From the UHGV virus genome UHGV-0227772: 11,339 bases of DNA. One strand, written 5' to 3'. Below the pieces are notes generated by a model that made no database searches, was not told the origin of the DNA, and saw only the letters and a list, made by a program, of their open reading frames with translations. The position numbers and the translations under genes were made by a program. This document shows, one piece after another, positions 3,739 through 4,163 of this stretch (position 1 is its first letter; every line of letters starts with the position of its first letter). This DNA is from a virus.

Positions 3739-3796
3739 CCTCGTGGTGTACCCATTGGCGGCATCGGTTTGTTGCTGACTGATGTCCGCCCTTTTT
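3739..3796 (+). ncRNA. dicF: DicF-like small RNA
   Basis: ctcgtggtgtacccattggcggcatcggtttgttgctgactgatgtccgcccttttt shares the DicF skeleton I recall (GGUG, UUGGCGG-AUC-GUUU, GACUG, CCGCCC plus U-run). 3' stem GGCGGCATC / GATGTCCGCC followed by TTTTT. Lies about 180 nt upstream of dicB, as in Qin. Ends are approximate. Confidence 0.5.
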
Positions 3797-3974
3797 AAAG
3801 TGAATTTTGTGATGCGATGAATGCGGCTATGCGCACGCGGAACAGTTAAAGCAGTAAGGCGGTATTTTACTGGCGTAACAAGCATCAACTAACCCGGCGT
3901 TAATTGTTAACTGGTTAACGTCACCTGGAGGCACCAGGCACTGCATCACAAAATTCATTGTTGAGGACGCGATA

Positions 3975-4163
3975 ATGGAAACGTTATTACCAAACGTTAA
4001 TACGTCTGACGGTTGTTTCGATATTGGTGTTCTGCTCAGTAACCGGGAGTTTACTGAAGATGCCATTAAGATGAGAAAATATGAGCCTTATCTTCTCAAT
4101 GATAATTCCATACTCTCCAGAATTGCCCTTCTTGAACTTGGTATTTTCGGAGAATGTCAATGA
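3975..4163 (+). CDS. dicB: DicB-like cell-division inhibitor
   Basis: 62-aa ORF METLLPNVNTSDGCFDIGVLLSNREFTEDAIKMRKYEPYLLNDNSILSRIALLELGIFGECQ. N-terminal half closely matches K-12 DicB (MKTLLPNVNTSEGCFEIGV...FTEDAI) from memory, and the length is identical. GAGGA 8 nt upstream. Confidence 0.8.
   Translation: METLLPNVNTSDGCFDIGVLLSNREFTEDAIKMRKYEPYLLNDNSILSRIALLELGIFGECQ

What the first reader, a model, noticed from the sequence alone, without database searches (positions are those of the whole stretch)
3739..3975. DicF-like sRNA followed by a 15-bp perfect long-range inverted repeat bracketing the dicB leader
A DicF-like sequence with a terminator-like 3' hairpin and U-run (3739-3796) sits about 180 nt upstream of dicB. 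Just after it, TGAATTTTGTGATGC (3801-3815) is exactly complementary to GCATCACAAAATTCA (3943-3957), enclosing 127 nt that contain a GTTAACTGGTTAAC palindrome (3908-3921) and a CCTGG/CCAGG hairpin. In RNA this would make a long stem ending 18 nt before the dicB start: a plausible RNase III processing or translational-control element.
Basis: partly seen in the sequence, partly recalled or inferred. Interest (0 to 1): 0.5.

Follow-up and report, generated by a model that had tools for sequence, protein, structure and literature searches.

The report
RNase III stem after DicF-like sRNA
The 15-bp inverted repeat is real: it closes a conserved, pseudoknotted RNA domain between a DicF/KilS-type small RNA and the cell-division inhibitor gene dicB, and it matches the place where RNase III is already known to cut the same transcript in E. 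coli K-12, so the arrangement is largely known biology in a variant prophage.

Summary
A diverged DicF/KilS-family sRNA lies at 3743-3796 (Rfam DicF 29 bits, below the cut-off of 48). A perfect 15-bp inverted repeat, 3801-3815/3943-3957, follows it; 0 of 500 shuffles exceed 12 bp. E. coli K-12 Qin has essentially the same arms between dicF and dicB, differing at two inner positions, and K-12 Rac has them between KilS and kilR.

The repeat is the core of a 19-30-pair closing helix (P1). P1 encloses a ~120-nt domain with three hairpins and an H-type pseudoknot. All of these covary across 31-100 phage sequences. The domain is a sister of Rfam STnc100/PasD. It scores 23.8 bits, below the Rfam cut-off of 47. 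A model built only from members not linked to DicF finds it at 64.8 bits.

The reported 72-nt DicF species, whose 3' end is made by RNase III from read-through dicBF mRNA, ends inside the left arm by my arithmetic. The best reading is therefore an RNase III processing helix that separates the sRNA from dicB mRNA. Folding models do not support occlusion of the dicB ribosome-binding site by this helix.

The RNase III site is known biology. The STnc100 homology, the pseudoknot and the recurrence upstream of dicB, kilR and tciA/B appear undescribed, and the domain's own function is unknown.

The parts
3642..3730 (+). Upstream long irregular hairpin (core arms CGAAAGCGCACGG 3652-3664 / CCGTGCGCTTCCG 3708-3720). 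It is the orthologue of the K-12 RNase III site that makes the 5' end of the 190-nt DicF precursor and, by position, the 5' end of KilS.
   Evidence: fold z -3.2. It is conserved in K-12 Qin, K-12 Rac and IMG/VR loci, with an A-U to G-C compensatory change in L074/L058/Rac. PMC10448788 maps the 5' end of the 190-nt species to RNase III. My arithmetic places that end in the right arm of this hairpin.
3743..3796 (+). DicF/KilS-family small RNA: 5' single-stranded region, terminator hairpin 3757-3790, U-run 3792-3796.
   Evidence: Rfam DicF 29 bits, E 3.6e-4, full-length match. Terminator scan. Alignment with KilS and DicF. 19 variants of this sRNA sit in front of the same downstream element.
3792..3819 (+). 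P1 5' arm. The perfect core is 3801-3815, the inner extension runs to 3819, and a weak outer extension uses the terminator U-run 3792-3800.
   Evidence: The predicted RNase III cut lies at about 3810-3815, by transfer of the K-12 72-nt DicF end.
3820..3838 (+). Junction AAU (3820-3822) and hairpin P2: GCGGC 3823-3827 pairs with GC 3833-3834 and CGC 3836-3838, with A3835 bulged. The pentaloop is UAUGC 3828-3832.
   Evidence: Across the family the stem switches CCCCC/GG.GGG <-> GCGGC/GC.CGC <-> CCUUUC/GAAAGG while the loop UNNGC is kept. 3 of 5 pairs are compensatory.
3843..3849 (+). Pseudoknot 5' strand CAGUUAA, pairing with UUAACUG 3907-3913 in the P3 loop.
   Evidence: Per-sequence test on 100 family members: mean longest complement 7.0 nt against 4.97 for swapped partners; at least 7 nt in 76% against about 11%. 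Several different sequence pairs occur.
3850..3895 (+). Variable region with a local hairpin, poorly conserved in length and sequence.
   Evidence: Alignments A2 and A3; MFE fold.
3896..3922 (+). Hairpin P3: GGCGUUAAUU 3896-3905 / GGUUAACGUC 3913-3922, with invariant loop GUUAACU 3906-3912.
   Evidence: 10 pairs, 5 with compensatory changes, 98.7% of cells paired.
3924..3938 (+). Hairpin P4: CCUGG-AGGCA-CCAGG, directly abutting the P1 3' arm.
   Evidence: U-A <-> G-C compensatory change at the middle pair; 100% paired in 37 sequences.
3939..3967 (+). P1 3' arm. The perfect core is 3943-3957. A weak outer extension to 3967 reaches the dicB Shine-Dalgarno GAGGA at 3963-3967.
   Evidence: The predicted partner RNase III cut lies near 3945-3950 (inference from a 2-nt 3' overhang).
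3975..4163 (+). dicB (62 aa, cell-division inhibitor). Its ATG lies in a small local hairpin, 3971-3978 / 3982-3990.
   Evidence: Pfam DicB 122 bits; predicted probability that the ATG is unpaired is 0.00-0.04.

Best explanation
The inverted repeat is the core of the closing helix (P1; 19 pairs with one mismatch, up to 27 pairs counting the weak outer extension) of a conserved, pseudoknotted ~120-nt RNA domain. The domain lies between the terminator of a DicF/KilS-type sRNA and the ribosome-binding site of dicB.

Most transcripts from the operon promoter stop at the sRNA terminator. In those that read through, the sequence just after the terminator pairs with the sequence just before the dicB ribosome-binding site. 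This gives about two turns of double-stranded RNA. RNase III cuts both strands near the middle of that helix, at about 3810-3815 and 3945-3950.

The cut gives the sRNA an alternative, roughly 19-nt longer 3' end. It also uncouples dicB-ydfD mRNA from the upstream part of the operon, leaving dicB with a short 5'-monophosphate leader of about 25-30 nt. With the conserved hairpin upstream (3642-3730), the sRNA is bracketed by two RNase III helices.

Shown here: the helix, its conservation and covariation, the domain architecture, and the homology to K-12 and to STnc100. Taken from the literature for the K-12 orthologue: RNase III dependence of the 72-nt DicF 3' end. Inferred: the exact cut positions in this window, and the consequence for dicB expression, whether activation or faster decay.
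For: The 15-bp perfect repeat is far beyond chance. The MFE and centroid folds close the helix, with z -3.5 to -4.1.

K-12 Qin has the same arms apart from two inner positions, which give a G.U and a U.G pair. K-12 Rac has them upstream of kilR.

On 31 distinct long-P1 sequences, 27 P1 pairs are 93.8% paired, against 38-42% when the partners are slid. 12 pairs show changes on both sides, and one lineage (L039/L044/L103) has an entirely different 20-22-bp perfect helix. Family-wide, 7 of the 9 inner P1 pairs are compensatory.

Many G.U pairs would be A-C mismatches on the other strand, so the plus-strand RNA is the folded species.

P1 length is bimodal. It is 20-30 pairs in the 31 leader-type sequences, none followed by a T-run. 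It is 4-14 pairs in 73 of the other 75 sequences (no P1 could be anchored in the remaining two), and most of these are followed by a terminator.

Literature: RNase III processing of full-length dicBF mRNA gives a 72-nt DicF (PMC5069750, PMC9438474). Taking the annotated 53-nt DicF plus 19 nt gives L001 2454-2459, inside the left arm 2445-2463 and at the middle of the helix.

Gordon et al. 2017, Table S1: position 1649470 in the dicF-dicB spacer has 0 and 0 reads in wild type against 26 in the rnc mutant, and is flagged as a known site. The kilR-sieB spacer has 0 and 0 against 41.
Against: No RNase III data exist for this variant. I could not read Faubladier 1990, so the 72-nt end is placed by arithmetic with about 5 nt of uncertainty.

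The RNA-seq signals are low-count, low-resolution entries in a long list, with sites merged within 400 bp.

Most double changes in P1 come from one lineage plus L088. Within DicF-linked copies the arms are nearly invariant, so there are few independent events.

P1 is also simply the closing helix of a structured domain that exists with short P1 elsewhere (P7: 9 bp). A long helix could therefore serve the domain rather than RNase III.

The window's helix has an A x C mismatch and a G.U pair near its inner end.
Confidence: 0.7

Rival explanations
1. Translational gate. The long helix, extended outward by pairing of the terminator U-run with the dicB Shine-Dalgarno GAGGA, keeps the toxic DicB untranslated on read-through mRNA until the helix is opened or cut.
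For: The outer extension can be drawn in dicB versions (UUUUU/GAGGA, mostly G.U) and in kilR versions (CCCUUUUU.../...AAAAAUGG), where it reaches the SD. The helix ends 6 nt before the SD, inside the usual 30S footprint. The genes downstream of long-P1 copies are toxic or small membrane proteins: dicB, kilR and 36-aa hydrophobic peptides.
Against: Partition-function folding gives a mean probability of 0.75 that the SD is unpaired for 3797-4010, and 0.71 for the K-12 equivalent. That is nearly the same as after the predicted cuts, 0.80. In the L039/L044/L103 lineage the long helix ends 20-30 nt before the SD. The low SD accessibility predicted for the full transcript (0.16) comes from pairing with the sRNA 5' region, not from P1.
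Confidence: 0.2
2. The helix matters only as P1 of an autonomous structured RNA domain, a relative of STnc100/PasD with its own function such as protein or ligand binding, RNA stabilisation, or a released stable RNA. RNase III cutting would then be incidental, or would merely excise the domain.
For: The domain has four covarying helices, a pseudoknot and invariant loop and junction nucleotides. It occurs with short P1 as the 5' part of bona fide STnc100 sRNAs scoring 52-147 bits. It also occurs as a leader upstream of terB/tciA-tciB in P7 and D6. A model built without any DicF-linked copy finds the window element at 64.8 bits.
Against: This does not explain why P1 is 20-30 pairs exactly in the copies embedded in polycistronic mRNAs, nor why a second lineage evolved a different 20-22-bp perfect helix. 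In K-12 the spacer has zero coverage in wild type but reads in the rnc mutant, which argues against a stable excised domain. No function of the STnc100 5' domain is described in the papers I could read.
Confidence: 0.35
3. A DNA-level element: a protein-binding or recombination site, or a cruciform, formed by the inverted repeat.
For: The repeat is perfect in the DNA and includes HpaI-type palindromic hexamers nearby.
Against: The arms are 127 bp apart. Conservation follows RNA rules: G.U pairs occur on the plus strand only, compensatory changes are present, and a pseudoknot is conserved. The region lies inside a known transcription unit.
Confidence: 0.02

Closest known systems
E. coli K-12 Qin dicF-dicB spacer (RNase III site giving the 72-nt DicF; Faubladier, Cam & Bouche 1990, as cited in PMC5069750 and PMC9438474)
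   Same: Same position in the same operon. The arms are essentially the same (TGAATTTTGTGATG.../...CATCACAAAATTCA), as are P2, P3, P4, the pseudoknot and the dicB ribosome-binding region.
   Different: The sRNA in front is strongly diverged: 29 against 76.7 bits on Rfam DicF. It sits about 20 nt, rather than about 135 nt, after the upstream hairpin. The variable region of the domain differs, and the window has an A x C mismatch in the inner helix.
K-12 Rac KilS-kilR leader (KilS: Bar et al. 2021, PMC8175672)
   Same: Same three-part module: upstream hairpin, then sRNA with a GGCGGCAUC.../...CUGAUGUCCGCC terminator, then the long-P1 domain, then a cell-division inhibitor gene.
   Different: The downstream gene is kilR, not dicB. 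The right arm has a bulged A and a U.G pair. The sRNA 5' sequence differs.
Rfam STnc100 (RF02076) and PasD sRNAs of lambdoid/Stx prophages
   Same: Same core fold and invariant motifs: GGUGAAU, the P2 pentaloop UNNGC, P3 with a loop pairing upstream, CCNGG-AGGCA-CCNGG, and CACC closing P1.
   Different: The window element scores 23.8 bits against a cut-off of 47. It has GCGGC-type P2, a P1 of 19-27 rather than 6-9 pairs, and no terminator after it, and it lies in an early-operon mRNA leader rather than the late region. The pseudoknot and the P2 register I use are not in the Rfam consensus.
RNase III processing helices in polycistronic phage and host transcripts (lambda N leader, T7 early mRNAs, rnc and pnp leaders; from general knowledge)
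   Same: About two turns of double-stranded RNA formed by distant segments between cistrons. Cleavage separates functional RNAs and alters expression of the downstream cistron.
   Different: Here the helix closes a conserved pseudoknotted domain rather than a simple loop, and one product is an Hfq-type sRNA.

Membership tests
DicF (Rfam RF00039) | Covariance-model score at or above the gathering score of 48 bits | tested here: not met
   29 bits, E 3.6e-4, full-length alignment. K-12 DicF scores 76.7. PGAP leaves the near-identical copy in strain GE3 unannotated.
DicF (Rfam RF00039) | Location in a dicBF-type operon, after ydfA-like genes and before dicB, ending in an intrinsic terminator | tested here: met
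   DUF1391 at 3438-3590, DicB at 3975-4163, DUF1482 at 4154-4348; terminator at 3757-3796.
DicF (Rfam RF00039) | Hairpin-loop sequence complementary to the ftsZ ribosome-binding region (K-12: AGUUUUACUCCG with CGGAGAGAAACU; my own alignment) | tested here: inconclusive
   The loop here is UUGUUGCUG and the K-12 motif is absent. A different 9-nt run, UCGGUUUGU/ACAAAUCGG (two G.U pairs), exists, but runs of this length are not unusual.
DicF/KilS family | Hfq binding and trans-regulation | not testable with these tools
   Needs co-immunoprecipitation or RIL-seq and reporter assays.
STnc100 (Rfam RF02076) | Covariance-model score at or above the gathering score of 47 bits | tested here: not met
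   23.8 bits, E 0.0056. K-12 scores 34.4 and GE3 29.8. CCCCC-type copies in IMG/VR loci score 52-147.
STnc100 (Rfam RF02076) | Shared core architecture: P1 closing helix, P2, P3 and P4 with the invariant motifs | tested here: met
   Model R1, built from 30 members not linked to DicF, hits 3811-3947 at 64.8 bits, E about 6e-13, and this is its only hit in the window. Caveat: all training sequences were retrieved through a 17-base motif that the window also contains. Covariation is shown.
STnc100 (Rfam RF02076) | Stand-alone sRNA: the domain is followed by a short single-stranded stretch and an intrinsic terminator | tested here: not met
   No T-run or terminator lies between 3957 and dicB. The ATG follows 18 nt after the helix.
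RNase III substrate | About 20 bp or more of largely uninterrupted double-stranded RNA | tested here: met
   3799-3819 / 3939-3959: 15 perfect pairs plus extensions, about 20 pairs with one mismatch.
RNase III substrate | rnc-dependent cleavage within the helix | not testable with these tools
   This is known only for the K-12 orthologue, through secondary citations and a weak RNA-seq signal.
RNase III substrate | Absence of antideterminant base pairs in the proximal and distal boxes | not tested
   I did not apply the published box rules.
Riboswitch-like cis-regulator | A ligand-binding aptamer whose P1 controls an expression platform | not testable with these tools
   The architecture is compatible: a junction closed by P1, a pseudoknot, and invariant loops, followed by a terminator or an SD. 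There is no ligand, no consistent alternative pairing (my reading), and no Rfam riboswitch hit.

The most novel reading that the evidence does not exclude
The ~120-nt pseudoknotted core is a distinct functional RNA module of temperate enterobacterial phages, used in two ways. In one it is the 5' body of Hfq-type sRNAs (STnc100/PasD, sometimes in tandem arrays). In the other it is a leader placed immediately upstream of host-toxic genes that inhibit cell division (dicB, kilR, tciA/tciB and small membrane peptides). In the second use it would sense or bind something, such as a protein, a ligand or the ribosome, to set how much toxin is made. RNase III cleavage of its extended P1 would be the switch that couples this to sRNA maturation.
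Probability: 0.2. Interest if true: 0.7.

Novelty: new member of a known kind. Interest (0 to 1): 0.35.

Why it matters
DicF and DicB are prophage products that stop host cell division and alter metabolism and phage sensitivity. How their relative amounts are set after transcription is only partly known.

Three points follow from this analysis. First, the RNase III site after DicF is the extended closing helix of a conserved structured domain. Second, the same module precedes kilR in Rac and tci genes in P1-like phages. Third, the module is a sister of the STnc100/PasD sRNA body. Together these tie several separately described prophage RNAs into one family and give concrete constructs to test.

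For genome annotation, the result also shows that diverged DicF/KilS sRNAs and STnc100-like leaders fall below Rfam cut-offs and go unannotated.

Tried and rejected
- Rfam at gathering level found nothing in the window. Only the permissive search showed DicF and STnc100.
That scan biases the sample towards copies with an intact P4 motif.
- Whole-molecule RNAduplex of sRNA variants against the ftsZ leader was uninformative, because shuffles scored similarly.
- Faubladier 1990 and 1994 and Cam 1988 are not in the library. The supplement of Altuvia 2018 is not held.
- ARAGORN finds no tRNA-like gene. I noted that P1 and P4 are arranged like an acceptor stem and T-arm, and that tRNA genes are often neighbours, but I did not pursue this.
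- I looked for an antiterminator alternative between P2 and the downstream terminator in sRNA-type copies. It appears in one subgroup only, so I dropped it (reading).
- I considered boxB-like (N-utilisation), CsrA-site and put-like antiterminator readings of the 5-bp stem and pentaloop hairpins. None had supporting evidence.
- A DNA-level role is rejected on strand-specific G.U pairs and compensatory changes.

Full report
**Context.** The window is a lambdoid (Qin/Rac-like) prophage. It carries the following features:
- YdaS/YdaT-type genes on the minus strand (1463-2187).
- A PaaR2-like/PaaA2/ParE module (2203-3147).
- A ydfA-like DUF1391 gene (3438-3590).
- The region in question.
- dicB (3975-4163; Pfam DicB 122 bits).
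- A ydfD-like DUF1482 gene (4154-4348).
- An 829-aa exonuclease ORF and an integrase (7230-8348).

The closest complete genome, E. coli GE3, has the same order. It has no ncRNA annotated between the DUF1391 gene and dicB.

**Check of the observation.**
- Rfam at gathering level reports nothing in the window.
- A permissive scan of 3400-4200 gives DicF (RF00039) at 3743-3791: a full-length match at 29 bits against a cut-off of 48, E 3.6e-4.
- The same scan gives STnc100 (RF02076) at 3803-3952: 23.8 bits against 47, E 0.0056.
- A terminator-like hairpin and U-run end at 3796.
- The inverted repeat 3801-3815/3943-3957 is 15 nt and perfect, with 127 nt between the arms. None of 500 dinucleotide-preserving shuffles of 3400-4200 has a perfect inverted repeat longer than 12 nt.
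- The MFE and centroid folds of 3735-3990 and 3797-3962 close the repeat into an 18-20-pair helix, with z-scores of -4.1 and -3.5.
The CCTGG/CCAGG hairpin is at 3924-3938.

**The element in E. coli K-12.**
- K-12 Qin has the same element between dicF and dicB. The arms read TGAATTTTGTGATGTGGTG / CACTGCATCACAAAATTCA. Everything from the terminator U-run to the dicB start is nearly identical, apart from a variable middle segment.
- Parts of the region match in 4,628 of 5,426 complete E. coli genomes, often several times per genome. Only 28 genomes hold this particular sRNA variant over at least 80% of the query.
- K-12 Rac has the same module upstream of kilR. The annotated sRNA KilS (b4833) takes the place of DicF there.
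- The window's sRNA shares its terminator stem (GGCGGCAUC.../...CUGAUGUCCGCC) with KilS rather than with K-12 DicF. It also shares KilS's short distance from the upstream hairpin.
- 19 different sRNA variants precede the same invariant sequence UUUUUAAAGUGAAUUUUGUGAUG in the loci I collected. The sRNA diversifies while the downstream element is held constant.

**A conserved structured domain inside the helix.** A motif scan of IMG/VR for CACCNGGAGGCACCNGGCA returned 120 stretches. They yielded about 140 instances and about 100 distinct sequences. All share the same plan:
- P1, with arms ending ...GGUG and beginning CACC....
- A junction, AAU.
- Hairpin P2, with pentaloop UNNGC.
- A linker whose first 6-10 nt pair with the loop of hairpin P3, forming an H-type pseudoknot.
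- A variable insert.
- Hairpin P3.
- Hairpin P4 (CCNGG-AGGCA-CCNGG), abutting the 3' arm of P1.

Results on the 31 distinct long-P1 sequences (alignment A2):
- 47 pairs are 96% paired, against 38-42% when the partners are slid.
- 18 pairs change on both sides; shuffles give 6.7 ± 1.9, and 0 of 500 reach 18.
- P1 has 12 of 27 compensatory pairs, P3 has 5 of 10, and P4 switches U-A to G-C.

Results on 37 diverse family members (A3):
- 7 of the 9 inner P1 pairs are compensatory.
- 3 of 5 P2 pairs are compensatory.
- 94.6% of cells are paired, against 35-47% when slid.

For the pseudoknot, the longest complement between linker and P3 loop averages 7.0 nt, against 4.97 when partners are swapped between sequences. 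It is at least 7 nt in 76% of sequences, against about 11%. In the window this pairing is CAGUUAA 3843-3849 with UUAACUG 3907-3913.

Many P1 pairs are G.U, which would not pair on the minus strand. The folded species is therefore the plus-strand RNA.

**Relation to STnc100.**
- Copies with CCCCC-type P2 are bona fide Rfam STnc100, scoring 52-147 bits, and often lie next to phage tRNA genes.
- Copies with GCGGC-type P2, including the window, stay below the cut-off.
- A covariance model built only from 30 members not linked to DicF or KilS (A4, R1) finds the window element at 3811-3947. The score is 64.8 bits, E about 6e-13, and this is the model's only hit in the window. It also finds the K-12 Qin, K-12 Rac, E. 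albertii, P7 and Klebsiella phage copies.
- Caveat: every training sequence was retrieved through a 17-base motif that the window shares, which inflates the score.
- STnc100 and the related PasD are described as prophage-encoded, Hfq-associated base-pairing sRNAs of the late region. None of the papers I could search links them to dicF or dicB.

**P1 length is bimodal.**
- 31 distinct sequences have 20-30 pairs. All have GCGGC-type P2 and none is followed by a T-run.
- In 73 of the other 75, P1 is 4-14 pairs (no P1 could be anchored in the remaining two), and most are followed 17-70 nt later by an intrinsic terminator.
- Long-P1 copies sit in mRNA. Their downstream genes are dicB, kilR, two kinds of 36-aa hydrophobic peptide, a 94-aa ORF and a 283-aa ORF.
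- One lineage (L039/L044/L103) is not preceded by a DicF-type sRNA. It has a completely different perfect 20-22-bp P1, CAGACCUUGCAAUGCAGUG/CACUGCAUUGCAAGGUCUG, which ends 20-30 nt before the ribosome-binding site.
- What long-P1 copies have in common is therefore about two turns of duplex, not occlusion of the ribosome-binding site.
- P1-like phages P7 and D6 carry the domain with a 9-bp P1, 38 nt upstream of terB/tciA-tciB.

**RNase III.**
- Two papers cite Faubladier et al. 1990 for an RNase III-dependent 3' end that yields a 72-nt DicF from full-length dicBF mRNA. This is in addition to the terminated 53-nt form (PMC5069750; PMC9438474).
- The 53-nt DicF is annotated at L001 2383-2435. The 72-nt end therefore falls at L001 2454-2459, allowing for uncertainty about the U-tract.
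- That position is inside the left arm (2445-2463) and at the middle of the helix. It corresponds to window 3810-3815.
- A 2-nt 3' overhang would put the partner cut near 3945-3950. This would leave dicB mRNA with a leader of about 25-30 nt and would release 3811-3949 as a fragment. These positions are inference.
- Gordon et al. 2017 list position 1649470 in the dicF-dicB spacer, inside the domain. It has 0 and 0 reads in two wild-type replicates against 26 in the rnc mutant, and is marked as a known site.
- The same table lists 1418510 in the kilR-sieB spacer, at the upstream hairpin of KilS, with 0 and 0 against 41. These are weak, low-resolution entries.
- The zero wild-type coverage argues, weakly, against a stably released core RNA.
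- The other documented RNase III site makes the 5' end of the 190-nt DicF species (PMC10448788). By my arithmetic it falls in the right arm of the conserved hairpin upstream of the sRNA, window 3642-3730. The sRNA is thus bracketed by two long helices.

**Translational control.**
- An outer extension of P1 can pair the terminator U-run (3792-3800) with 3958-3967, which includes the SD GAGGA. It is mostly G.U and A-U pairs with a bulge.
- Partition-function folding gives the SD a mean unpaired probability of 0.75 for 3797-4010 and 0.80 after the predicted cuts.
- Only in the full transcript does the value fall to 0.16. There the SD pairs with the sRNA 5' region, not with P1.
- The ATG lies in a separate small hairpin in all models.
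- I therefore rank translational gating by P1 as a minor possibility.

**Verdict.**
- The finding is real and its interpretation is essentially right.
- The core of it, a DicF-type sRNA followed by an RNase III-processed helix in front of dicB, is already known for K-12. The window holds a diverged member of that arrangement.
- Three things appear not to be described in the papers I could search. The helix is the extended P1 of a pseudoknotted domain homologous to STnc100/PasD. The same module precedes kilR in Rac. The domain recurs in front of cell-division-inhibition genes in P1-like phages.
- What the core domain itself does remains open.

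Noticed in passing
window 3642-3730: Long irregular hairpin upstream of the sRNA. It is conserved in K-12 Qin, K-12 Rac and IMG/VR loci, with an A-U to G-C compensatory change. By arithmetic it is the RNase III site that makes the 5' end of the 190-nt DicF species, and KilS starts in its right arm. The sRNA is thus flanked by two double-stranded RNA helices.
   Followed up: partly
L129 (NC_000913.3 1416500-1421500), minus strand 2060-1700: The K-12 Rac sRNA KilS (b4833) is a DicF paralogue with the same upstream hairpin and the same long-P1 STnc100-like domain before kilR. 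The paper that named KilS does not mention DicF.
   Followed up: partly
L032 342-1038; L052 1811-2335; L109 4349-5513; L016 2265-3380: Tandem arrays of three to five STnc100-type units with a period of about 253 nt. Most units have their own intrinsic terminator, and the arrays often lie next to tRNA genes.
   Followed up: no
L006, L008, L021, L023, L116 (around the motif match): Here the order is reversed. The domain (P1 of 12 bp) comes first, followed by UGCUGUGUGUAGUCUU plus a terminator hairpin. That 5' sequence is the one many DicF/KilS variants carry. This suggests that DicF-type sRNAs and the domain are parts of one repeating unit.
   Followed up: no
L127 (phage P7, NC_050152.1 72453-72568) and phage D6: P1-like phages carry the domain with a 9-bp P1. 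It lies 38 nt upstream of terB/tciA-tciB (tellurite/colicin resistance and inhibition of cell division), after tRNA-Asn and tRNA-Thr in the C1-controlled ban operon. No feature is annotated there.
   Followed up: partly
window 3971-3990: The dicB start codon sits in a small local hairpin, GAUAAUGG/CGUUAUUAC. Its predicted probability of being unpaired is 0.00-0.04 in the window. K-12 has a similar sequence, but there the value ranged from 0.00 to 0.66 depending on the construct.
   Followed up: partly
window 2203-3147: A PaaR2-like regulator, a PaaA2 antitoxin (PF21217) and a ParE toxin (PF05016) lie directly upstream of the ydfA-sRNA-dicB operon on the same strand. K-12 Qin has dicA in that position.
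   Followed up: no
window 3595-3605 and 3865-3875: An 11-nt perfect inverted repeat, CGCCAGTAAAA/TTTTACTGGCG, links the region just after the ydfA-like stop codon with the variable hairpin inside the domain. It is unexplained and may be chance or a duplication remnant.
   Followed up: no
L002 (E. coli GE3) 4144-4192; window 3743-3791: Because this sRNA variant scores below the Rfam DicF cut-off, NCBI's annotation pipeline leaves it unannotated. Many diverged DicF/KilS variants are probably missed in the same way.
   Followed up: partly
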